Of a stretch of DNA of 64,000 nucleotides, positions 49,053 to 64,000 are shown in pieces. The position numbers were made by a program, and so were the translations under genes. Below the pieces are notes generated by a model. That model had not been told where the DNA came from. It worked only from the letters and a program-made list of their open reading frames with translations, and ran no database searches. The DNA comes from a virus (lineage: Duplodnaviria; Caudoviricetes), in the IMG/VR virus record IMGVR_UViG_3300037847_005729, positions 638 through 64,637 of that record. One strand, 5' to 3'. The stretch's first letter is position 1. Every line of letters starts with the position of its first letter.

Positions 49053-49068
49053 AAAAAAATTTTTCATA

Positions 49069-49093
49069 TAAGTTGTTTGTTTTCAACTACTTA
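49069..49093. repeat. Solitary 25-bp palindromic element (IHF-like)
   Basis: TAAGTTGTTT-GTTTT-CAACTACTTA; matches the repeat family at 58.8-63.9 kb. Confidence 0.65.
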
Positions 49094-49095
49094 CG

Positions 49096-49137: not shown

Positions 49138-49166
49138 TTGACATATCAGAATTTTATGTATCTAAT
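49138..49166 (+). promoter_or_regulatory. sigma70-type early promoter, leaderless geometry
   Basis: TTGACA-N17-TCTAAT-N7-ATG(49174). Confidence 0.65.
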
Positions 49167-49173
49167 CGGCACT

Positions 49174-51318
49174 ATGATTATTAAATCCAATAACAAAAAC
49201 ATTACCAAATCAGCAGACTTTAAAGAAAAGTCTTGTTCGATTGACCAAGAGGATATGCGATATATCGCTTCTCTTTTACGGAACAATTATTCTAATCCGT
49301 TGTTAGCTACCATTCGTGAGATTATTGCAAATGCACTTGATGTTACTAAAAGCGAAAAGGTAGATATTCAATTACCAACCCAAATTGAACCAAACTTTAT
49401 AGTACGAGATTTTGGGTGTGGTTTGAGTGAGGAAGATATGCTTGGTCTTTATACTAAGTATGGCAAGTCAACCAAGCGTGACTCCAACGAATCAATCGGT
49501 GGTTTCGGCATTGGGCGATTCGCACCTTTATCGTACACAGATTCTTTTATTGTAAGGTCAGTACACCAAGGTCACAAACATTCCTATATTATAAGAGTGG
49601 ACGAACAAGACGATACTATTGTTTCACAGATTGAAAGTCAGCCAACTAAAGAAGCTGATGGAATCTATGTGCAAGTAGGAATCAAAAAAGATGACATTGA
49701 AGAATTTTTTAAAATTTTTAAAAAAACTTGGTGGTATCGTAAAGATGATATTAAACTACTCAATGAAGATTGGGGCGATTTAACATTAGGCGAAGCACAA
49801 GAATCCAATGATGTATTTGATTTGTATAAAGAGAATAGTTATTGGCAAGATGTTGCTCACTATGGAGACGAGCCTTATGTTCTTATGGGTGGTATTCCAT
49901 ACAAAGTAAACCAAGATGACGAATGGTTTATGTTTAAAAAAGGTCTTGTTTACAAAGCAGAGATTGGCGAGTTCAAGTTGCACCATAGTCGTGAGACATT
50001 GGAGTACAACCCACAAGTCAAACAAGCTCTCAAGAAAGCATCAGATAAGATATTCGCCAAGCTCGCTGAAACATTGGGCAGTCAAATGGACAAAGCCAAT
50101 ACTTTCTATGAAGCTAGTGAGATTATGTATAAAGCTATGGAAACTTACAGACAGAGATTTGGTGCAAAGCTCAAAATTTCTTCTAAGAAGTTTAAAGATG
50201 TAAATGGTGTTTTGTTTCCTAAAGATTGGATTGCCAAAGAAACCCACATTACCACTAGAGAAAATGGTAACTTGAGTTTTTCTCATTCAAGATATACCTA
50301 CAATGAAAACGAACCAAGAGAAGATACAATCTATATTGTTGATGATTATCCAAGTCCTCGCTCTCCAAAGTCAAGATGTTTATTCCTGCACCTTTGGGAA
50401 AAAGAAAATCTTAAAGATGGTAACAAAGGTAAGATTATCCTTATCAATTCAGAGGGTATGAAAGCCGATAGTATTGATGGCACATACGATACCCAAGCGT
50501 TGTGTGTTCAGCGAGTCAAAGATTGTAACCACCCAAATGTCAAACTGCTATCAGAGTGCGAGCGAATCATTGCACCACAGAGAGCTAGGAAGAAAGGTAA
50601 TGTTAAATCTTTATCAGCTATGGATATTCTAAAGTTTGATTATAGAAACACCCATCACGAGTGGGCAAACCTAGACACCTATTGGGGAATAGACAAAGAT
50701 GAAGATTTTGATGACGATAGTAAGACATTCTATTATGTTAATTACTATGCGAACAAAATTACTTTTGAGCCTTACAGAAAATACCTTGGTGCAGATGGCG
50801 AAGTTGAAATTAATCCTTATATGTTCCATAAGAATTTTTTACAAAACATTCCTAGTTTCAAAGAAAACATTTGGGGTGTTCGTAAAAACCTAAAGAGTCG
50901 AATCGAGAAAAGGGATAATTGGATTTGCTTAGATGATGTCTATGAAGATTTGGTCAAGCAAGACGAGGGTGTTCAAAACTATGTTAAGTGGTACGAAGAG
51001 CGAGAGCTTTTTGATGGGTACGACAAAACCTTGATGGAAGATATTGCTAAGTTTCCAAAAGATAACCTTAATGAAATTTTAAAAAATTTATTAAAAAATT
51101 ATAATGCTTGGAGAACAAAACAATCAAAAGTCTACAATCAAAATTATAATCACGACTATGTGATGGAAAGACTCAAGCCACAGAAGTTAAGTGGCGAATC
51201 ATTAGCGAGGAAGCGAGCTTTCGACAAAGCGTTTCCTATGGCAAAGTATTGCCTTGAGGGTTGCAGTAGTGACAAAGCAACAAGTATTTCTGATGTGTTA
51301 GCGTATATCGGAGAGTAG
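49174..51318 (+). CDS. rIIA: rIIA-like protein (GHKL ATPase N-terminus)
   Basis: YSN...IREI.ANALD, RDFG.GL, YGKSTK..SN..IGGFGIG, SRE.L.Y; rIIB-like gene downstream. Confidence 0.8.
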   Translation: MIIKSNNKNITKSADFKEKSCSIDQEDMRYIASLLRNNYSNPLLATIREIIANALDVTKSEKVDIQLPTQIEPNFIVRDFGCGLSEEDMLGLYTKYGKSTKRDSNESIGGFGIGRFAPLSYTDSFIVRSVHQGHKHSYIIRVDEQDDTIVSQIESQPTKEADGIYVQVGIKKDDIEEFFKIFKKTWWYRKDDIKLLNEDWGDLTLGEAQESNDVFDLYKENSYWQDVAHYGDEPYVLMGGIPYKVNQDDEWFMFKKGLVYKAEIGEFKLHHSRETLEYNPQVKQALKKASDKIFAKLAETLGSQMDKANTFYEASEIMYKAMETYRQRFGAKLKISSKKFKDVNGVLFPKDWIAKETHITTRENGNLSFSHSRYTYNENEPREDTIYIVDDYPSPRSPKSRCLFLHLWEKENLKDGNKGKIILINSEGMKADSIDGTYDTQALCVQRVKDCNHPNVKLLSECERIIAPQRARKKGNVKSLSAMDILKFDYRNTHHEWANLDTYWGIDKDEDFDDDSKTFYYVNYYANKITFEPYRKYLGADGEVEINPYMFHKNFLQNIPSFKENIWGVRKNLKSRIEKRDNWICLDDVYEDLVKQDEGVQNYVKWYEERELFDGYDKTLMEDIAKFPKDNLNEILKNLLKNYNAWRTKQSKVYNQNYNHDYVMERLKPQKLSGESLARKRAFDKAFPMAKYCLEGCSSDKATSISDVLAYIGE

Positions 51319-57689: not shown

Positions 57690-58619
57690 ATGAAAACTAC
57701 CACATATAAAAATCTCGTTGGTCAGAACGAAGTAAAAAAACAACTGACATTCTATTCAGAAGCACAAAACAAAAGTGGCGTTGCACCATTCTTAATGTTG
57801 AGTGGGGCAAAGGGCTTGGGTAAAACTGAGTTCGCCAAGCGTTATGCTTCTAGTCTCAAGAACCAAGACGGCACTACTCGTGCTTTCCTAGAGATTAACT
57901 GCTCTACTATCAAGAACGCTAATTCATTCTTTGAGCAGATATTTCTACCTATCGTGATGCACAATGAGATTACTATCTTGTTTGATGAAGCTCATATGCT
58001 TCCCAAGGACTTGGTAAATGCTTTCCTTACTATATTCAATACAGAAAAGGGAACATACAAAGAATTTCATCACGCAGAACAAATTTTTCAGTTTGATTTC
58101 AAGAAGCAATGTTTCATCTTTGCTACTACTGAGATGGACAAACTCTTCCCTCCGTTCAAGGACAGATTGACAATCGTGGATTTCCGTCCGTATGCAGTCG
58201 AAGAGTTGGGGCAAATCATTGGTCTTATCGCATCAGAGATTAAGTTCGGTGAGGGTGTTTTGGACGAAGTCGCAGAGACCACTCGTGGCAATGCTCGTTC
58301 AGCAGTTATGAGAACCAAAGAGATTATGTTGTATTGTGAGAGAGCCAATCAGAATACATATGACCTAAAGGATTGGAAAAAGATGTGTGGTATCCTAGAC
58401 ATCAAACCTCTTGGATTGTCCAACCTAGAAGTCGAGCTTCTCAAGATTCTCCAAGAGCGAGGTAATTGTTCGTTACAGATGCTATCAGCAGTAACAGGTA
58501 TGAGCAGAACTGCAATCCAAAAGGAAGCCGAACTTTATCTACTGAAGCGTGGGCTAATGAAGATAAATGGTCAGCGTGAGATAAGTGGCAAGGGAATGAA
58601 TGTCCTAGAGAAGATTTAA
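57690..58619 (+). CDS. RuvB-like AAA+ ATPase
   Basis: VGQ..VK..L, GAKGLGKT, LFDEAH, ATT, DRL, RG.AR.A, C-terminal winged helix (E.YLL..GL). Confidence 0.82.
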   Translation: MKTTTYKNLVGQNEVKKQLTFYSEAQNKSGVAPFLMLSGAKGLGKTEFAKRYASSLKNQDGTTRAFLEINCSTIKNANSFFEQIFLPIVMHNEITILFDEAHMLPKDLVNAFLTIFNTEKGTYKEFHHAEQIFQFDFKKQCFIFATTEMDKLFPPFKDRLTIVDFRPYAVEELGQIIGLIASEIKFGEGVLDEVAETTRGNARSAVMRTKEIMLYCERANQNTYDLKDWKKMCGILDIKPLGLSNLEVELLKILQERGNCSLQMLSAVTGMSRTAIQKEAELYLLKRGLMKINGQREISGKGMNVLEKI

Positions 58620-58654: not shown

Positions 58655-58711
58655 AGGTTCGGCAGGGTGCGAGCGAATTCATCTCAAACAATACCTGCCG
58701 AATCTTTTTTT
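58655..58711 (+). terminator. Terminator hairpin ending the + strand early block
   Basis: TTCGGCAGG...CCTGCCGAA followed by T-run. Confidence 0.65.
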
Positions 58712-58838
58712 GTGCAAATATAGTCGACAAACCACACCAAACCAAATAAAGCACCAAAATGGCACCAAATCAAATAAAGGCTTAATAAGACACATAACCA
58801 CATATAACATATTATAAAGTTCTGGAAGTAAAAAGTCG

Positions 58839-58912
58839 TAAGTTGTTGATTATCAAGGAGTTGCAAAACGCGCCCGGTCGGCCGCCGCAAGTCGTTGATT
58901 ACCAAGCACTTA
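58839..58912. repeat. Paired 25-bp palindromes with 24-bp GC-rich spacer (copy 1)
   Basis: TAAGTTGTTG-ATTAT-CAAGGAGTTG / spacer / CAAGTCGTTG-ATTAC-CAAGCACTTA. Confidence 0.9.
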
Positions 58913-58942
58913 TGAATGTCAAGCAAAAATTTAAAAAAATTT

Positions 58943-58981
58943 AAAAAAAAACTCGCCCCTCAGTTTTTTTGAGAGGCGAGT
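58943..58981 (-). terminator. Rho-independent terminator of the DUF932 gene
   Basis: ACTCGCC.CTCA...TGAG.GGCGAGT with A-run on the + strand. Confidence 0.75.
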
Positions 58982-58994
58982 CGTAAAGCGTTGG

Positions 58995-59783
58995 CTAGGA
59001 GGCGTTTATGACCTCTGCCACCTTTGGCTTGCGAGAGTTCGCATAGGTGTCAAGCACAGAGTGAAGCGAGCTTGAACGCTTTGCCGTGTTCGTGAGGTTG
59101 CCACGATACACATTTGTGAAAGCGTTTGAAAGCGACCACAAGTCACGACCCTCAAAGTCCTCGTGTTGAGGTGCGTGCCATTGGTTGACAATGTCAGTCA
59201 CTTGAGTTTTGGAACAAGCCCCATTACGAAAACCACGCACGATTAAGTCGTGTGCGATTCTGTCGTCAATCTCGGTTTCCTTGTAGGAATCGATACGCTT
59301 CTCGGAAGTGACCCAAGACTCGCAAAGCTGACCGATAGCACGACCAAGCAAAGACGGCAAGTCACGCATGATGTGCGTAGTGTGCTTGCGACCCAACACG
59401 ATTTCATTGTTGAAAATCATATTGGTGCAAACGAAAGGTGCATCGCCTGCACAGACCATCGCACGAGACGATTTATCGTGTGAGTTGCGAAGCCCAAAGA
59501 TTGTACCGACCTCGGCATCGTGCTTGCGAGCGATACCCTTGACTTGGAACAAGCCGAAGTAGCGTTGCCCATAACGATGCAAGGTGTGATGCTCTTGAAC
59601 GATGTCAAGATTTGGTGTGTTAGCGATAGCCTCACGAAAATCTTTTACAAGACCATCGTGTGAAACAGGTTGCCATTGTTCGGTAGCCTGTGGTGTTGCA
59701 ACTTTCTCGACATCTGAGAAGTCGCTTGCCTCGCCTGCACAGACACGCAGGTCGAGTAGTTTTGGATTTAGTATGTTAACCAT
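58995..59783 (-). CDS. DUF932 family protein
   Basis: P..T..W.PV.H, GLRNSHDKS, FVC.NM.F, RKHT, LWSL.NAFT; ATG at 59783 fits the promoter. Confidence 0.75.
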   Translation of the reverse strand: MVNILNPKLLDLRVCAGEASDFSDVEKVATPQATEQWQPVSHDGLVKDFREAIANTPNLDIVQEHHTLHRYGQRYFGLFQVKGIARKHDAEVGTIFGLRNSHDKSSRAMVCAGDAPFVCTNMIFNNEIVLGRKHTTHIMRDLPSLLGRAIGQLCESWVTSEKRIDSYKETEIDDRIAHDLIVRGFRNGACSKTQVTDIVNQWHAPQHEDFEGRDLWSLSNAFTNVYRGNLTNTAKRSSSLHSVLDTYANSRKPKVAEVINAS

Positions 59784-59790
59784 ACATAAG

Positions 59791-59818
59791 AACATAGACT
59801 ATTTGATGTGATTGTCAA
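59791..59818 (-). promoter_or_regulatory. sigma70-type early promoter, leaderless geometry
   Basis: TTGACA-N16-TATGTT-N7-ATG, T-tract upstream. Confidence 0.75.
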
Positions 59819-59858
59819 CTAAAAAAACAAAAAAAAGTAAAAAAACTTTGCTGTAAAG

Positions 59859-59875
59859 TTGGCACGCTTCTTGTA
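59859..59875 (+). promoter_or_regulatory. sigma54 -24/-12-like motif
   Basis: TTGGCACGCTTCTTGTA; repeated at 61907. Confidence 0.45.
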
Positions 59876-59897
59876 TAAAAACAGCCTTAGAATTACG

Positions 59898-59972
59898 TAA
59901 GTCGTTGATTATCAACGAGTTGCGGCGGCGCCCCCGCCCGCGCGTCGCAAGTCACTGATTATTAGTAACTTA
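59898..59972. repeat. Paired 25-bp palindromes with 25-bp GC-rich spacer (copy 2)
   Basis: TAAGTCGTTG-ATTAT-CAACGAGTTG / spacer / CAAGTCACTG-ATTAT-TAGTAACTTA. Confidence 0.9.
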
Positions 59973-59988
59973 CGACACGAAAAAAGTT

Positions 59989-60210
59989 TTACTTTTGGCT
60001 TGACATATAGTCATTGATGGTTTTTTGGTCGTTCTCTCTAAACAAGAACCAATCACTAGAGCCATAAAAACACCAACCCTCTTTATATTTTCTTATGTAT
60101 TCAGAAAATGGATTTGTAGAACCTTTTAAAACAAAAGTCATTTCATAAGATTCATCGTGCCAACGACTATGAGTTTTTCTTATATGTTTTATTTCTTTAA
60201 TTGATTGCAT
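59989..60210 (-). CDS. Hypothetical protein
   Basis: 73-aa ORF in the minus-strand operon. Confidence 0.6.
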   Translation of the reverse strand: MQSIKEIKHIRKTHSRWHDESYEMTFVLKGSTNPFSEYIRKYKEGWCFYGSSDWFLFRENDQKTINDYMSSQK

Positions 60211-60211
60211 T

Positions 60212-60400
60212 TTATTCCCCTTCTATTATTAAGTGTGGTCTGCATTTGTACCAACCTCTAAGCATTGCCGAACTCCAGTTTTTCGGCTCACTGTCGACCC
60301 AAGACCTTGGCTTCTTTTCGTAAAGCTCTATCTCATTTGCGACACGAATTTTTTTCTCTTGTAAGGTTTCTTTTTTAAATGGTAGTTTATTTTTTTTCAT
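60212..60400 (-). CDS. Hypothetical protein
   Basis: 62-aa ORF abutting its neighbour. Confidence 0.6.
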   Translation of the reverse strand: MKKNKLPFKKETLQEKKIRVANEIELYEKKPRSWVDSEPKNWSSAMLRGWYKCRPHLIIEGE

Positions 60401-60442
60401 TGTTATATATTAGTAGTAAGATTATTATTGTAGTTAAAAGGA

Positions 60443-61144
60443 TTAAGAGCATTCTAAAACAAAACCACTTTCATCTTTTTTTGCAAGCCCTTTTTCAACC
60501 AAGCCTACAATTTTGTTTTGTCCGTCTAAGAATCTCAAGTCAGTTTCGTCTCCGTCAATCACTTCACGACCTTGCCAAGTTTTTGGAAGTCCGTTGCGAA
60601 AAACACAAGCGACATTTGCCCCTAATGAAAGCAATTTTTTTGTTTCGTTGTCGTTGCATTCGCTCCTTGAAAATGTTAAGTGATAGTTGCTAGGAAGTTT
60701 TCCGTCTAAGTATTTCTCAACTCGCTTTACTGATTTAGTGTAGTCATAGAATTGAACATCAGAAAACCAATCCATCAGTTTAAGTCCGTTATACTTTTGA
60801 GATTCCCAAGCTATATCGCTAGTTAAGTTAAGTCTAAAGCAAGGCGTCATTCCTTTTTTTGTCGCTAACTTTACTGCGTTAGAAATTTCTCTAACAAGTT
60901 GACGCATAAAATTTTCTTTGTCGTTAAAGAATCTTTTTGTCTTTGCTATTCGAGATTTTTGAACATTAGAGAATTTACCACGACCTGCAGTATTTAAGCA
61001 AGCCTCAGCACAACCTTTAGAAGCCCAAGCACAAGCATTATGCCCACTCAAGTTAAAAGGTGCAAGGTGTAAGCCAAAAGTGATAAAGCCTAGCTTTTCC
61101 CCTTTGATTGTTTTAGCGTTTCCGTTATTAAGTAGTTTAGTCAT
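60443..61144 (-). CDS. gp88-like protein (Cys-rich, radical-SAM-like fold)
   Basis: C..AS.GC...CL...GRG, RLN.TSDI.W, FYDYTK, NYHLTFS, DGD..DLRF. Confidence 0.7.
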   Translation of the reverse strand: MTKLLNNGNAKTIKGEKLGFITFGLHLAPFNLSGHNACAWASKGCAEACLNTAGRGKFSNVQKSRIAKTKRFFNDKENFMRQLVREISNAVKLATKKGMTPCFRLNLTSDIAWESQKYNGLKLMDWFSDVQFYDYTKSVKRVEKYLDGKLPSNYHLTFSRSECNDNETKKLLSLGANVACVFRNGLPKTWQGREVIDGDETDLRFLDGQNKIVGLVEKGLAKKDESGFVLECS

Positions 61145-61151
61145 AGTTTAT

Positions 61152-61180
61152 ATAATGGTAGAAAAGTTAAGCCTTGTCAA
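61152..61180 (-). promoter_or_regulatory. sigma70-type early promoter, leaderless geometry
   Basis: TTGACA-N17-CATTAT-N7-ATG(61144). Confidence 0.75.
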
Positions 61181-61241
61181 ACCAAAAACCCAAAGAAAGA
61201 AAAGAATTTTCGATTCGACAAGGCGACTACGATAACAACAA

Positions 61242-61487
61242 TTAAATTAATTTAAAGTCTCTAATTCTAGACTTGTAGAAAGAGCGAACACCACCATCTT
61301 TGAAGCTAGAAGCAAAAGAGTAAGTGTTGAACATATCGCCAAAGTCCTCAATGAAATTCATATCTATATAGTAAGTACCTAACTCACCATCAGAAGTTTT
61401 CTTTGAGTAGACAATTTTTGCCATATTTTTACGCTCGAAAGCCCTACGAAATGCAAGGCGAATTTTTTGGAATATATTTAGTTTCAT
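61242..61487 (-). CDS. Hypothetical protein (WYL-like C-terminal motif)
   Basis: ATG at 61487; ends GVRSFYKSRI; promoter TTGACA-N17-TATCTT at 61554-61526. Confidence 0.6.
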   Translation of the reverse strand: MKLNIFQKIRLAFRRAFERKNMAKIVYSKKTSDGELGTYYIDMNFIEDFGDMFNTYSFASSFKDGGVRSFYKSRIRDFKLI

Positions 61488-61533
61488 AATTTTTTCTCTG
61501 TTAAGATTTTCAATTTTAGATTTATAAGATAGC

Positions 61534-61776
61534 TTATTTCTCAATGATTGTCAAGCCCTTATTTAAATTTCTCAAGATTTCCTCGCCAACAATTTCGCAA
61601 GCTCTTCTTTGGCTTTTTGTTAAGCCACGCTTATCAAATCCGTTTTGTTGTTCGATAACATCAGCTAGACGCTCGATAGTCCAAACAGCATCATTTAAAT
61701 GTGCTGGATTTATTTGTTTTGGCTTATAAGAAAAAGCCTTATCAATAATTTTGTCTTTAAGAATTTTAATTGTCAT
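61534..61776 (-). CDS. Hypothetical protein (paralog of 63057-63293)
   Basis: ATG at 61776 after TTGACT-N16-TATAGT-N7; shares KAFS, IN, GLTK.Q..ACE..G, LNK.LT. Confidence 0.75.
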   Translation of the reverse strand: MTIKILKDKIIDKAFSYKPKQINPAHLNDAVWTIERLADVIEQQNGFDKRGLTKSQRRACEIVGEEILRNLNKGLTIIEK

Positions 61777-61848
61777 AGTATCTACTATATACCATCGCCA
61801 AATAAAGTCAAGCCCTAATACAGAAAAAAAACAAAAAAAAATGTGTGG

Positions 61849-61873
61849 TAAACAGCTGATAATCAAATAGTTA
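61849..61873. repeat. Solitary 25-bp palindromic element
   Basis: TAAACAGCTG-ATAAT-CAAATAGTTA; both halves fit WATCARNNNNTTR. Confidence 0.65.
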
Positions 61874-61906
61874 CGTAATAGGGCGAAATAAAATTAAAAA
61901 AAAATG

Positions 61907-61923
61907 TTGGCACGCTTCTTGAA
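61907..61923 (+). promoter_or_regulatory. sigma54 -24/-12-like motif
   Basis: TTGGCACGCTTCTTGAA, starts 39 bp before a palindrome pair, as at 59859. Confidence 0.45.
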
Positions 61924-61945
61924 TCTTACAGCATCAGATTTTTCG

Positions 61946-62020
61946 TAAGTTGTTGTTATTCAAAGAGTTGCGGCGCGCCCCGGGGTGCGAACCTGCAAGT
62001 CGTTGACCTGCAGGCACTTA
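61946..62020. repeat. Paired 25-bp palindromes with 25-bp GC-rich spacer (copy 3)
   Basis: TAAGTTGTTG-TTATT-CAAAGAGTTG / spacer / CAAGTCGTTG-ACCTG-CAGGCACTTA. Confidence 0.88.
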
Positions 62021-62025
62021 CGTGA

Positions 62026-62223
62026 TTAGTAACCACACACACCGCGATAGGGTTCGTCCACCCACGTACACTCTTCGAGGCGAGCGAGGTTGACGTCCAC
62101 GCCACCCTCACGCTCGGCGTATGCTTCAGCCATAGCGTCAAGTTCAGCGTCAGAATGATTTGCCCAAGGGTCGAAAGAAGCAACAGCCTCTTGATTGTCG
62201 TTAGTATTATTAATGTTAGCCAT
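62026..62223 (-). CDS. Small acidic protein bracketed by two repeat pairs
   Basis: 65 aa; promoter TTGACA-N16-CATACT-N6-ATG at 62257-62230. Confidence 0.7.
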   Translation of the reverse strand: MANINNTNDNQEAVASFDPWANHSDAELDAMAEAYAEREGGVDVNLARLEECTWVDEPYRGVCGY

Positions 62224-62287
62224 GATTACAGTATGGATTATTTGATTTCATTGTCAAGGGTTTTTTTAAAAAAAGTTTATTTTTTTT

Positions 62288-62361
62288 TAAGTTGTTGCGT
62301 GTCAAGTACTTGCGATTTTGATGGGCCCGCGAGTCGCAAGTCCCTAACAACCAAGGACTTA
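62288..62361. repeat. Paired 25-bp palindromes with 24-bp spacer (copy 4)
   Basis: TAAGTTGTTG-CGTGT-CAAGTACTTG / spacer / CAAGTCCCTA-ACAAC-CAAGGACTTA. Confidence 0.85.
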
Positions 62362-62403
62362 CGACTTGAGTTAGCTCAGACTAACTCGGCTATGACAACA
62401 ACA

Positions 62404-62517
62404 TTAAAACATATATGAGACAACTGCTTGGATAATGTCAAACTTATTTATTGCAATGCCCGTGACTGTGGTTATGCATAGGGCAACGATTGTGAATCTG
62501 TCAATAATTAATTTCAT
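62404..62517 (-). CDS. Small hydrophobic protein, not in ORF track
   Basis: 37 aa MKLIIDRFTIVALCITTVTG... Confidence 0.45.
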   Translation of the reverse strand: MKLIIDRFTIVALCITTVTGIAINKFDIIQAVVSYMF

Positions 62518-62522
62518 TTTTT

Positions 62523-62675
62523 TTATTCTCCGATTGGGTAGCCTTGGTCTTTCCAAGATTGTGTCTGTAATTTTTCTCGCTCGATTTCTCGGTCGAGTCC
62601 TATCATTAAGCAGGCGTAGCCTACTGCAAGCATTACTAGTGCTGAAAGAATGTAAATTTTTGTTTCGTTAGTCAT
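62523..62675 (-). CDS. Small membrane protein, not in ORF track
   Basis: 50 aa MTNETKIYILSALVMLAVGYACLMIG..., starts 4 nt after previous stop. Confidence 0.55.
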   Translation of the reverse strand: MTNETKIYILSALVMLAVGYACLMIGLDREIEREKLQTQSWKDQGYPIGE

Positions 62676-62679
62676 AGTC

Positions 62680-63036
62680 TTAGTCTCTCATTGAGTAAGC
62701 GATTGCCTCGCTTGTTTTGGTTTGGTTTTCGATGTAGTCGTTGATGACTGCAATGTCTGTAACTTTGCAACGAGCGATTGCGTCAAGTGTTTCGCCCTCG
62801 CAAAGTCTTGTGCCGTTTTTGATGCAACGCTCTTGCAACCAATCTGCCATTTTACCGAACGCTTTATCCTCTGCTTCTAGAGAATTGTAACGCTCAAGAG
62901 TGTGAGTCGTTCCTCTCCAAGACTCGAAAGAATATTTTGTTGTGTCCTCGTCTGCTCGGAAGCCTACGAACTTCATTACTTCACCCTTTACAGGGTAGAA
63001 GCAACCGATTTCTAGAGTATTATTTGATGTTGTCAT
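62680..63036 (-). CDS. Hypothetical protein
   Basis: 118 aa; promoter TTGACA-N16-TATTCT-N7-ATG at 63071-63044. Confidence 0.75.
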   Translation of the reverse strand: MTTSNNTLEIGCFYPVKGEVMKFVGFRADEDTTKYSFESWRGTTHTLERYNSLEAEDKAFGKMADWLQERCIKNGTRLCEGETLDAIARCKVTDIAVINDYIENQTKTSEAIAYSMRD

Positions 63037-63056
63037 AGTTTATAGAATAGGAATTT

Positions 63057-63293
63057 TTATGCTTTTGTCAAACTTTTATTTAACTTTTCTAAAAGTTTTT
63101 TTCCAATTTCTTCGCAAGCTTTTGTCTGTGCTTTTGTTAAGCCTTGGTCGCCTAAAGTAAGTTGACCTTCGATTAGCGTTGCAAGATGTCCGAGATTGTA
63201 AGCAACTGATGAAAGGTTGCCGTTGATTCTGTGAGGTTCAAAAGAGAATGCTTTCTCTGTGATTTCGTCTTGAGTTTGTTTAATTGTTATCAT
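63057..63293 (-). CDS. Hypothetical protein (paralog of 61534-61776)
   Basis: Full-length similarity to the 61776 gene product. Confidence 0.75.
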   Translation of the reverse strand: MITIKQTQDEITEKAFSFEPHRINGNLSSVAYNLGHLATLIEGQLTLGDQGLTKAQTKACEEIGKKLLEKLNKSLTKA

Positions 63294-63294
63294 A

Positions 63295-63612
63295 CTAACA
63301 CTCTAAAGGATTTCTAAATTCTGTCAAGTCATTTTGAGAAAGTTTTGCAATTTTTTTTAAAACATTTCTCGCTCTGCAAGGTGTTAGTCCACCGATTACG
63401 TCCATTGTAATTTTAGGGTGATAGACTAAGTTGCCGTCATAAAGCAAGGCAAGCTCGAAGCCGTAAGACATATCGTGATTGACTATTGAAGCACCGAAGC
63501 CGTTCGGAAACTTGAAAATCTTTTGCCACCCATTGAGGTGTGCCACTCTGCCAAAATTGGTTTCGTGGTCACCATCAAAAGTGATTTTATTAAAAGTGTC
63601 TATTATATACAT
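63295..63612 (-). CDS. Hypothetical phage protein
   Basis: FPNGFGASIV...SYG.ELA.L, DV.G.LT. Confidence 0.7.
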   Translation of the reverse strand: MYIIDTFNKITFDGDHETNFGRVAHLNGWQKIFKFPNGFGASIVNHDMSYGFELALLYDGNLVYHPKITMDVIGGLTPCRARNVLKKIAKLSQNDLTEFRNPLEC

Positions 63613-63845
63613 AGTGTGTTAAAGTCTCCGTCTACTTGGTTAGGGTCGAAGGTGTCGGAAGAGTCAACAACTTCTGCTTGAAAGTAAATTGTCCAATCGA
63701 GTGGCTGACTCAACGCATACTTGTAAGCGTCATTTAAGCCTTGGCGATTCTTAGGAAAGAACTCGACATAGTAACGGCTCTCGCCTTGTTCGTTGTCGAC
63801 CTCTGTTATAACTGAGTATTGTGGTTTATTATTTGATGTTGTCAT
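63603..63845 (-). CDS. Hypothetical protein
   Basis: ATG at 63845 after TTGACA-N16-TATGTT-N7 (63880-63853). Confidence 0.7.
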   Translation of the reverse strand: MTTSNNKPQYSVITEVDNEQGESRYYVEFFPKNRQGLNDAYKYALSQPLDWTIYFQAEVVDSSDTFDPNQVDGDFNTLCI

Positions 63846-63917
63846 ACTATAAAACATAAGAATTTGTTCGGCTATGTCAACACCTAAATGAAAAAAAGTT
63901 TATTTTTTTTTGTGTCG

Positions 63918-63942
63918 TAAGTACCCTACCCCCAACAACTTA
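63918..63942. repeat. Solitary 25-bp palindromic element
   Basis: (TCG)TAAGTACCCT-ACCCC-CAACAACTTA(CGA). Confidence 0.7.
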
Positions 63943-64000
63943 CGAACCCCCCCGTTTTTTAAACTTTTGCACCTAACAAAAACACAGACACGGCGGGGGG

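What the first reader, a model, noticed from the sequence alone, without database searches (positions are those of the whole stretch)
58839..63942. Family of paired double-IHF-like palindromes clamping GC-rich spacers between early transcription units
Seen: eleven 25-bp imperfect palindromes, half-site (CG)YAASTnnYTG with a 5-bp centre, at 49069, 58839, 58888, 59898, 59948, 61849, 61946, 61996, 62288, 62337 and 63918. Eight form four pairs starting 49-50 bp apart around a 24-25 bp spacer that differs in each copy and is far more GC-rich than its surroundings. Outer half-sites begin TAAG and inner ones CAA, so each 74-75 bp unit is itself symmetric. All are intergenic, and one pair sits where the + and - strand early blocks converge. 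Established: the IHF consensus is WATCARNNNNTTR (13 bp); two inverted copies overlapping by 1 bp give exactly 25 bp. Copies 58839, 59898 and 61849 match it on both strands (e.g. AATCAACGACTTA and TATCAACGAGTTG). Inference: the variable positions mostly do not co-vary, which favours protein-binding sites over RNA hairpins. Two sharp bends about 5 helical turns apart would build a defined nucleoprotein structure on the early DNA, serving entry/compaction, insulation or cassette recombination. I know of no named system with this layout.
Basis: partly seen in the sequence, partly recalled or inferred. Interest (0 to 1): 0.85.

Follow-up and report, generated by a model that had tools for sequence, protein, structure and literature searches.

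The report
Paired IHF-type palindromes between phage early genes
Between the early genes of this uncultured marine phage sit repeated 78-79-base DNA modules, each made of two mirror-symmetric sites that read like docking sites for the DNA-bending protein IHF around a GC-rich core; they are real and shared by many related phages, but their binding protein and function are still inferred.

Summary
All 11 palindromes exist at the stated places. A matrix built only from relatives recovers all 11 plus one more (58982-59010), and 11 of these 12 sites lie in 58.8-63.9 kb. Four pairs start 49-50 bp apart around GC-rich spacers.

The same module occurs as 92 pairs in the window plus 14 IMG/VR loci, always confined to a 3-9 kb stretch of the four virus records that I could search whole. 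Pair spacing is fixed within a lineage but differs between lineages (41, 42, 49, 50 bp). A fixed "five turns" geometry is therefore not a family property.

Support for hairpins is weak, and the long-hairpin fold and a spacer dyad have none. This points to protein-bound DNA.

The 29-mer is nearly identical to the inverted repeat next to IR2/nic in IncW plasmid oriT. A paper states that IHF binds IR3 there.

No HU/IHF, integrase or Y1 transposase gene was found in the four records, which are only 48-83% complete.

Units sit after stop codons and upstream of strong sigma-70 early promoters. In relatives they bound cassettes whose order is swapped.

This scan has already noted the same family in at least eight other genomes. 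Binding and function remain untested.

The parts
58837..58914 (.). Unit 1: 29-mer, 20-nt GC-rich spacer, 29-mer. It lies at the junction of the + and - strand blocks, just downstream of the only clear intrinsic terminator. A TTGACA hexamer (58922-58917, - strand) lies 2 nt from its edge.
   Evidence: the orthologous unit is present in L128 and L132
59896..59974 (.). Unit 2: 29-mer, 21-nt spacer (GC 0.95), 29-mer. It starts 14 nt after the stop of the - strand gene 59989-60210. It lies 77 nt upstream of the -35 hexamer of the promoter at 59818.
61944..62022 (.). Unit 3: 29-mer, 21-nt spacer, 29-mer. It starts 3 nt after the stop of the - strand gene 62026-62223.
62286..62363 (.). Unit 4: a degenerate left 29-mer, a 20-nt spacer and a 29-mer. 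It lies 28 nt upstream of the -35 hexamer of the promoter at 62257.
63916..63944 (.). Single 29-mer with intact CGTAAGT/ACTTACG flanks and a C-rich interior that does not read like IHF. It lies 35 nt upstream of the -35 hexamer of the first early promoter (63880).
61847..61875 (.). Single 29-mer that matches the IHF consensus on both strands. It lies 35 nt upstream of the -35 hexamer of the promoter at 61811.
49067..49095 (.). Outlying single copy, intergenic, upstream of the rIIA-like gene (49138-51318).
58982..59010 (.). It overlaps the terminator stem and the 3' end of the DUF932 gene, and is conserved in L128 and L132.
59860..59874 (+). Sigma-54-like box TGGCACG-N4-TTGT. It lies 21 nt from unit 2, points into the unit and is antisense to the genes.
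   Evidence: identical in L128 although the 12 nt beside it have diverged
61908..61922 (+). Second sigma-54-like box TGGCACG-N4-TTGA, at the same 21-nt distance from unit 3.
59791..59818 (-). Strong sigma-70-type early promoter (TTGACA, 16 nt, TATGTT) downstream of unit 2. It is one of eight such promoters on the - strand; the others are at 63880, 63327, 63071, 62257, 61811, 61554 and 61180.
58950..58982 (-). Intrinsic terminator (13-pair stem followed by a T run) that ends the - strand early block.

Best explanation
The units are double-stranded, protein-bound architectural DNA modules. Each has two mirror-symmetric 29-bp sites of the IHF type (family consensus CGTAAGTCSTTGATAWTCAACGACTTACG) around a GC-rich core of 20-21 bp that resists melting.

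They sit at the boundaries of early transcription units, directly after a stop codon and upstream of the next strong sigma-70 early promoter with its A-tract UP element.

I infer that the host's IHF, or an IHF-like bending protein, occupies both sites as soon as the DNA enters the cell. The two sharp bends would then shape the DNA upstream of the next promoter and/or isolate neighbouring, heavily transcribed units from one another.

Because the same ~79 bp recurs between cassettes, the units also serve as homology patches at which relatives reshuffle early genes.

Shown: anatomy, restriction to the early region, conservation, weak or absent support for RNA folds, and near-identity to an oriT repeat that is stated to bind IHF.

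Inferred: who binds the sites, and what that binding does.
For: 1. Non-chance and restricted.
- 15 strand-matches against 0.06 expected.
- 11 of 12 matrix hits lie in 58.8-63.9 kb.
- In G001 all sites lie in 85.1-93.7 kb of 112.8 kb. In G002 they lie in 91.8-100.4 of 104.7 kb, and in G003 in 139.7-142.7 of 143.7 kb.

2. Family.
- 92 paired units in the window plus 14 loci, with spacing of 50 bp in 79 and 49 bp in 11.
- Orthologous units are kept in the close relatives L128 and L132.

3. DNA rather than RNA.
- Watson-Crick counts per pair are about what independent columns would give.
- Local hairpins: 80.0% paired against 78.5 +/- 0.4 in shuffles, with pairs 8-22 and 9-21 unpaired in 26-60 of 85 rows.
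- Long hairpin: 76.2 against 76.1, reached by 225 of 500 shuffles.
- Spacer dyad: mean 4.72 against 4.70 when shuffled.
- No Rfam family, and no unit was flagged as a terminator.

4. IHF type.
- 74 of 115 flank-detected 29-mers match WATCAR-N4-TTR on at least one strand, and 20 on both.
- The invariant columns A4, A5, T11, A19, T25 and T26 are the CA and TT positions of the two mirrored consensus sites.
- R388 carries GGAAGTCATTGTAAATCAATGACTTACG directly 5' of IR2/nic. A Bordetella plasmid carries the perfect 29-mer.
- PMC4814116, Fig 5 legend: 'IHF binds IR3'.

5. Position.
- Units 2 and 3 begin 14 and 3 nt after stop codons.
- 4 of the 8 strong - strand promoters have an element ending 28, 35, 35 or 77 nt upstream of the -35 hexamer.
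- In relatives the stop codon abuts the unit.

6. Cassette boundaries.
- Two cassettes lie in the order X-Y in L014 and L069 but Y-X in L120, and the similarity blocks start or end at unit edges.
Against: - No binding experiment exists for any copy.
- Six of the window's 11 copies match the IHF consensus on neither strand, yet they keep the CGTAAGT/ACTTACG flanks. IHF's consensus does not require those flanks.
- Local hairpins do show a small excess of double changes, 53 against 33.1 +/- 4.3 with 0 of 500 shuffles reaching it, mostly at pair 6-24. Some symmetry-keeping selection therefore exists. A palindromic protein site predicts this too.
- The host is unknown, so I cannot say that it has IHF.
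- That R388 IR3 is the palindrome I matched is my inference from the order of the four inverted repeats. The figure that would show it (S8 Fig of PMC4814116) is a supplement that I could not open.
- Distances to the next promoter vary (28-132 nt), so no single activation geometry holds.
- The enrichment of block endpoints at units (47 of 169 against 14.0 expected) is inflated, because the units are themselves conserved islands.
Confidence: 0.55

Rival explanations
1. The 29-mers are operators for a sequence-specific dimeric protein of the phage itself, for example an early-gene shut-off or timing regulator, and not for host IHF. The resemblance to IHF sites would then be partial and incidental.
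For: - The best-kept feature in the window is the CGTAAGT-N15-ACTTACG flank, two half-sites about two helical turns apart. It survives in copies whose interior is not IHF-like (63916, 62335).
- In a recurrent subtype a TTGACA hexamer lies 2 nt from the unit, so the 29-mer covers the place of the -10 hexamer like an operator. This is seen at window unit 1, L128, L132, L014 4570, L069 3580 and 8920, L089 693 and 6699, and L120 756 and 4383.
- Half-site variants AAGT/ACTT and AACT/AGTT change together (pair 6-24).
Against: - No DNA-binding family was found in the window's early proteins. Pfam matched 2 of 10 (DUF932 and GP88) plus AAA/RuvB-type families in the neighbouring AAA+ ATPase; PHROGs matched 2 of 10, both of unknown function.
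- The same palindrome occurs in IncW-type plasmids that share no such protein with the phage.
- Both half-site variants coexist within one unit of one genome, L049 1834. One specific protein explains that poorly.
Confidence: 0.2
2. The units act as RNA: a 3'-UTR stabiliser or processing site, a weak bidirectional terminator, or a small RNA of about 80 nt transcribed from promoters that face into the unit.
For: - They lie directly after stop codons.
- In L035, L049, L091 and L121 a T run follows 3-4 nt after the unit, and promoter-like hexamers place a start at the unit edge. An example is L091 3375, with TTGACA-N16-TATGGG-N9 on one side and TTGACA-N16-TATGAA-N8 on the other.
- Sigma-54-like boxes point into the unit at a fixed 12 nt in 14 units.
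- There is a small excess of double changes.
Against: - Stems are AT-rich and carry systematic mismatches at pairs 8-22 and 9-21.
- The window copies have only 5-10 of 12 pairs.
- The GC-rich core has no dyad beyond what its composition gives.
- No unit passes the terminator scan.
- Under a strict promoter definition only 5 of 170 unit sides have an inward-facing promoter.
- The orientation of the spacer's C-rich strand relative to the genes is not fixed.
- There is no Rfam match.
Confidence: 0.15
3. The units are mobile or recombinogenic elements. They could be REP/REPIN-like repeats, sites of a site-specific recombinase, or oriT-like nicking sites in which an IHF site sits beside a GC-rich enzyme target, and that activity moves the gene cassettes.
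For: - The cassette order is swapped between relatives, with the breakpoints at units.
- An RNA-library contig (X15) from a related strain skips 59983-60233, the gene next to unit 2.
- The layout resembles IncW oriT, where the same palindrome abuts the GC-rich relaxase hairpin IR2.
Against: - No Y1 transposase, tyrosine recombinase or HU/IHF gene was found in four records that are 48-83% complete.
- The copies are confined to one region of 3-9 kb and are not dispersed.
- Only 2 hits were found in 185,579 species genomes, both on MAG contigs; one of them (L124) carries further paired sites like the phage loci.
- Homologous recombination between repeats explains the shuffling without any dedicated enzyme.
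Confidence: 0.08

Closest known systems
IHF-binding inverted repeat IR3 ('ibs') of the IncW plasmid R388 oriT and its relatives (R7K, Bordetella plasmid BPP5P1)
   Same: The palindrome is nearly identical. R388 has GGAAGTCATTGTAAATCAATGACTTACG, R7K has GGAAGTCGTTGAAAATCAACGACTTACG, and BPP5P1 has the perfect CGTAAGTCGTTGAAAATCAACGACTTACG. In both settings it lies next to a GC-rich segment. IHF is stated to bind IR3 (PMC4814116, Fig 5 legend).
   Different: In oriT there is a single copy beside a relaxase hairpin and nic site. The phage has two copies flanking a core with no dyad, many units per genome, and no relaxase gene was looked for beyond Y1_Tnp. That IR3 is this palindrome is my inference from the repeat order.
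PeSLs (promoter-early stem-loops) of T4-type phages (Arbiol et al. 2010, PMC2839356; abstract read)
   Same: Both are small repeated intergenic cassettes in regions rich in non-essential early genes. Both sit next to strong sigma-70-like early promoters. Recombination between copies shuffles gene modules.
   Different: The PeSL stem-loop is an effective RNA terminator. Here the repeat shows weak or absent support for RNA folds, fails the terminator scan and reads as paired protein sites around a GC core. Mini-circles were not tested here.
RIB / BIME-1 elements of E. coli: an IHF site in the linker between two inverted REPs (PMC3333891, passages read; Boccard & Prentki 1993 seen only as a title in its reference list)
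   Same: Both are repeated extragenic mosaics that combine IHF sites with GC-rich palindromic DNA. Both lie at the 3' ends of transcription units. The same paper cites REPs as topological insulators and gyrase sites.
   Different: The order is inverted, IHF-GC-IHF instead of REP-IHF-REP. The GC core is not a palindrome. The elements are in a phage, and no RAYT gene was found.
IHF sites upstream of sigma-70 promoters, such as lambda PL (Giladi et al. 1998, seen only as a title in the reference list of PMC1784095; mechanism recalled)
   Same: An IHF-type site lies upstream of a strong promoter that has an UP element. In the window the two single copies end 35 nt upstream of the -35 hexamer.
   Different: The sites are paired, the distance to the promoter varies (28-132 nt), and half of the window's strong early promoters have none.

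Membership tests
IHF binding site | Match to the core consensus WATCAR-N4-TTR | tested here: inconclusive
   Family: 74 of 115 unique flank-detected 29-mers match on at least one strand, and 20 on both. Window: 3 of 11 match on both strands, 2 on one strand and 6 on neither.
IHF binding site | Binding and bending by IHF, shown by EMSA, footprinting or bending assay | not testable with these tools
   Only an indirect link exists. A near-identical palindrome lies in R388 oriT, and PMC4814116 says IHF binds IR3.
IHF binding site | IHF is available in the infected cell, from the host or the phage | tested here: inconclusive
   No PF00216 gene in 4 virus records that are 48-83% complete. The host is unknown.
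PeSL-type regulatory cassette | Repeat placed beside strong early sigma-70 promoters in a region of small accessory genes | tested here: met
   Eight strong - strand promoters lie in 59.8-63.9 kb, and four of them have an element 28-77 nt upstream. Most genes there match no family.
PeSL-type regulatory cassette | The stem-loop works as a transcription terminator | tested here: not met
   No unit passes the terminator scan. Stems are weak and mismatched. No T run directly follows the window's units 2-4.
PeSL-type regulatory cassette | Modular shuffling between copies | tested here: met
   The cassette order X-Y in L014 and L069 is Y-X in L120, with blocks ending at unit edges. This was shown in relatives, not in the window's own lineage.
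REP / REPIN / BIME | Dispersed high-copy extragenic palindromes with an associated Y1 (RAYT) transposase | tested here: not met
   Copies are confined to one region of 3-9 kb. No PF01797 match in 4 records.
CRISPR mini-array (repeat-spacer-repeat) | Identical direct repeats around unrelated, acquired spacers, with the repeat matching a host CRISPR array | tested here: not met
   The two 29-mers of a unit differ from each other. Spacers are 20-21 nt, always GC-rich and nearly identical across the copies of some genomes, such as L116, L062 and L119. A strict 26-letter pattern hit only 2 MAG contigs in 185,579 species genomes. No CRISPR repeat library was available.
Known RNA family (Rfam 15) | Covariance-model match | tested here: not met
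   No match at E <= 1 over units in 6 sources. Only a tRNA and a tmRNA-like hit elsewhere in L091, and one chance hit.
Tyrosine-recombinase core site (att/lox/dif type) | A cognate recombinase gene is present in the element | tested here: not met
   No PF00589 match in 4 records, while the control genomes all match. The records are incomplete.
Sigma-54 promoter (the box beside the units) | GG-N10-GC at -24/-12, and an enhancer-binding AAA+ activator | tested here: inconclusive
   Several relatives have TGGCACG-N4-YTGC, but the window's two boxes end in TTGT and TTGA. PF00158 gives only sub-threshold AAA+ hits of about 16 bits against a cut-off of 20.2.

The most novel reading that the evidence does not exclude
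The IHF-GC-IHF unit is a dedicated boundary device of a large clade of abundant uncultured marine and freshwater phages. Two IHF-induced U-turns would clamp a short GC-rich core that resists melting, forming a topological and transcriptional insulator between very strong, closely packed early promoters. Alternatively the unit works like oriT and presents the core to a nicking or gyrase-type enzyme. The same device would then make the early genes exchangeable cassettes.
Probability: 0.15. Interest if true: 0.8.

Novelty: new variant of a known kind. Interest (0 to 1): 0.6.

Why it matters
If host IHF loads onto these units on entry, a whole clade of abundant uncultured phages uses a host architectural protein to organise its host-takeover region. 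This phage's stretch is held by marine metagenome runs of several studies.

The fixed two-site, GC-core design would be a compact natural boundary or insulator element. It could be tested directly with purified IHF and reporter constructs.

The units also give a concrete handle on how early ORFan genes are gained, lost and reordered in phages that cannot yet be cultured.

My four relevant paper searches found no description of the module.

Tried and rejected
- Cultured relatives. Megablast of 58700-64000 against 50,697 phage records gave no match. A unit used as a blastn query also gave no match. The DnaE-like polymerase reaches at most 32.7% identity among the 25 records listed.
- E. coli genomes. 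The 33-nt palindrome query found no match at E <= 10.
- Rfam. Nothing matched at the units.
- Long-hairpin fold. Rejected.
- GC-core hairpin. Rejected: the best dyad averages 4.72 against 4.70 when shuffled, over 81 spacers.
- Inward-facing promoters. A loose look gave TTGAC[AT] hexamers 28-39 nt from many unit edges. Under a strict definition only 5 of 170 sides qualify. I keep this as a lead only.
- Helical phasing of the unit-to-promoter distance. The values cluster at 24-28, 34-37, 45-46, 76-77 and 89-90 nt. Many come from orthologous positions, so I draw no conclusion.
- RNA evidence. The runs were laid as contigs only, and they show no starts, ends or strand. Depth over the region is patchy in X15, X20 and X16, so there is no verdict on transcription of the units.
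- Linkage to the DUF932 gene. Rejected: five loci with homologues of 31-50% identity carry no 29-mers within 6 kb.
- Phage-encoded HU/IHF, integrase, Y1 transposase and sigma-54 activator. None found, or only sub-threshold hits, in records that are 48-83% complete.
- Papers. PMC413762 (Boccard & Prentki 1993) is not held. I did not ask for it.

Full report
WHAT THE WINDOW IS.
- The window is bases 638-64637 of a 64,637-base IMG/VR virus record that CheckV rates 48% complete.
- GC is 0.29-0.44 in 2-kb windows.
- It encodes a DnaE-like polymerase, an rIIA-like protein and a 2,390-aa J-type tail fibre.
- No cultured phage is close.
- Its last 6.4 kb is held by marine metagenome runs from several studies.

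THE OBSERVATION.
- The four pairs start 49, 50, 50 and 49 bp apart. Their spacers have GC 0.79, 0.96, 0.84 and 0.62.
- The conserved element is 29 bp long, CGYAAGT-N15-ASTTRCG. With at most one mismatch it gives 15 strand-matches (8 sites), all in 58837-63944, against 0.06 expected.
Eleven of these 12 lie in 58.8-63.9 kb.

THE FAMILY.
- A 16-letter pattern scan of IMG/VR returned 118 stretches. Most were single chance hits, but 20 foreign loci carried the full 29-mer pattern.
- Chaining sites gave 92 paired units in the window plus 14 loci. Start-to-start spacing was 50 bp in 79 and 49 bp in 11.
- Most apparent singles have a degenerate partner beside them.
- Spacing is fixed within a genome but not across the family: 41 bp in L073 (7 of 7 neighbour distances), 42 in L096 (5), 49 in L070 and 50 elsewhere. 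Forty-one and fifty bp differ by most of a helical turn, so a conserved 'five turns' geometry is not a family property.
- In the three larger related records, every site lies in one block of 3-9 kb.
- The close relatives L128 and L132 (98% and 95% protein identity in the DUF932 gene) keep units 1 and 2 and the extra site at orthologous places.
- Five loci with DUF932 homologues of 31-50% identity have no such sites.

DNA OR RNA?
- For the local-hairpin model, 80.0% of cells pair against 78.5 +/- 0.4 in shuffles.
- Double changes are somewhat enriched (53 against 33.1), mostly at pair 6-24, where AAGT/ACTT alternates with AACT/AGTT.
- Pairs 8-22 and 9-21 are unpaired in 26-60 of 85 rows. My own per-pair counts agree.
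- The alternative fold, in which the first 29-mer pairs with the second, shows no excess (76.2 against 76.1).
- The GC core has no more dyad symmetry than its composition gives (4.72 against 4.70).
- Rfam has nothing at the units, and the terminator scan flags none of them.
- High sequence conservation together with tolerated stem mismatches fits a symmetric protein site on duplex DNA better than a selected RNA helix.
- The small symmetric co-variation is expected of either model.

WHOSE SITE?
- The family consensus is two inverted IHF consensus sites sharing their centre.
- Among 115 unique 29-mers found by their flanks alone, 74 match WATCAR-N4-TTR on at least one strand and 20 on both.
- The invariant columns of the 85-unit alignment (A4, A5, T11, A19, T25, T26) are the CA and TT positions of the two mirrored sites.
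- A note from an earlier agent of this scan pointed to R388. I tested this.
  - A 33-nt query hit R7K, an uncultured IncW-like plasmid and a Bordetella plasmid.
  - In R7K, R388 and BPP5P1 the palindrome lies directly 5' of the GC-rich hairpin IR2 and the nic site. BPP5P1 carries the perfect phage-type 29-mer.
  - PMC4814116 (Fig 5 legend) says that R388 oriT has four inverted repeats, that TrwC binds IR2, TrwA binds IR4 and IHF binds IR3.
  - The order of repeats that I read makes the matched palindrome IR3. This is my inference, because the figure that shows it is a closed supplement.
- Against a pure IHF reading:
  - Six of the window's 11 copies fail the consensus on both strands but keep the CGTAAGT/ACTTACG flanks.
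  - The host is unknown.
  - The four records encode no HU/IHF.

CONTEXT IN THE WINDOW.
- The - strand block 59.8-63.9 kb has eight strong sigma-70-type promoters (10 of 12 matches each) and a single clear intrinsic terminator at 58982-58950.
- Units 2 and 3 start 14 and 3 nt after stop codons.
- Four of the eight promoters have an element ending 35, 28, 35 and 77 nt upstream of the -35 hexamer. These are the single at 63916, unit 4, the single at 61847 and unit 2. The other four promoters have none.
- Unit 1 follows the terminator, and a TTGACA hexamer lies 2 nt from its edge. This subtype recurs in L128, L132 and seven units of L014, L069, L089 and L120. I cannot explain it.
- A sigma-54-like box points into units 2 and 3 from 21 nt away, antisense to the genes.
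- In relatives the same box sits 12 nt from 14 units, 22 nt from 3, and 14-16 nt from units in L070. Overall 27 boxes point inward and 4 outward by my count from the table.
- No sigma-54 activator gene was found.

CASSETTES.
- Between L014/L069 and L120, two cassettes of about 1.1 kb lie in opposite order. The similarity blocks start or end exactly at unit edges.
- Block endpoints fall within 25 nt of a unit 47 times out of 169, against 14.0 expected. That figure is inflated, because the units are conserved islands. L089 was left out of this count as a near-duplicate of L014.
- An RNA-library contig of a related strain skips 59983-60233, the gene beside unit 2. This was laid at 90% likeness, so it is only a weak hint.
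- No integrase or Y1 transposase gene was found. Ordinary homologous recombination between the repeats is sufficient.

THE SPACER.
- In the window all four spacers differ.
- Between the window and L128/L132 the region is about 92% identical overall. Even so, the orthologous spacers differ at many positions while staying GC-rich.
- In L116, L062, L119 and L059 the spacers are nearly identical across copies and share a CCCCGCC-type core. The strand of that core is not fixed relative to the genes.
- Composition is thus the common constraint. Sequence is conserved only within some lineages.

VERDICT.
- The units are paired IHF-type protein sites around a GC core. They mark the boundaries of early transcription units and are shared by a broad uncultured phage clade.
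- The rigid five-turn device, and the proposed roles in entry or compaction, are not supported.
- The same family has already been recorded by this scan in at least eight other genomes, with the same general reading. Those are unchecked AI notes and I do not count them as evidence.
- Closest known things: the IHF site of IncW oriT, PeSL cassettes (PMC2839356, abstract read), RIB/BIME-1 elements (PMC3333891, passages read), and IHF-assisted sigma-70 promoters.
- My four relevant paper searches found no description of this module.

Noticed in passing
window 59791-63880, - strand: Seven of the eight strong early promoters have an ATG 6-7 nt after the -10 hexamer. The genes start at 63845, 63293, 63036, 62223, 61776, 61144 and 59783. 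The early mRNAs therefore look leaderless, with no Shine-Dalgarno sequence. The ORF list starts two of these genes at an ATG inside the -10 hexamer (63857, 59795), which is probably wrong. The same -10 plus 6 nt plus ATG layout is seen in L069 and L119.
   Followed up: partly
window 59860-59874 and 61908-61922 (+ strand); L059, L062, L116, L119, L070, L014, L089, L120: A sigma-54-like box (TGGCAYG-N4-YTGM) points into the units and is antisense to the flanking genes. It lies at lineage-fixed distances of 12, 14-16, 21 or 22 nt. In L128 the box and the 14 nt behind it are identical to the window, while the 12 nt between box and unit have diverged. Its function is unknown, and no activator gene was found.
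   Followed up: partly
window 58736-58780; L014 after 6486; L120 after 4461: Iteron-like direct repeats lie next to the last unit of the early block. They read TTATTTGGTTTGGT on the - strand of the window and occur in two to three copies. In the window they also lie beside a RuvB-like AAA+/winged-helix gene (57690-58619). This may be a replication origin.
   Followed up: no
window 58866-58885 and 59925-59945, compared with L128 and L132: Orthologous GC-rich spacers differ at many positions between strains that are about 92% identical overall. The flanking 29-mers are nearly unchanged. Possible causes are conversion between units or relaxed sequence constraint, but I did not test either.
   Followed up: partly
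window 58917-58922 (- strand), and seven units in L014, L069, L089 and L120: A TTGACA hexamer sits 2 nt from the unit edge, preceded by an intrinsic terminator and a T-rich tract. The 29-mer therefore occupies the place where a -10 hexamer would be. This is unexplained.
   Followed up: partly
window 59821/61844 and 59983/60233: Contigs of RNA library X15, from related strains and laid at 90% likeness, join 61844 to 59821 with 19 other letters between, and skip 59983-60233. Both junctions lie in A-rich promoter-upstream tracts or beside unit 2. This hints at cassette variants in nature.
   Followed up: no
L124 (MAG contig labelled Flavobacteriaceae) and L123 (MAG labelled Chitinispirillia): These were the only two genome-collection hits of the strict 26-letter pattern. 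L124 carries 5 sites, including two pairs 50 bp apart, so it looks like a phage contig binned into a MAG. It is not evidence for the host.
   Followed up: partly
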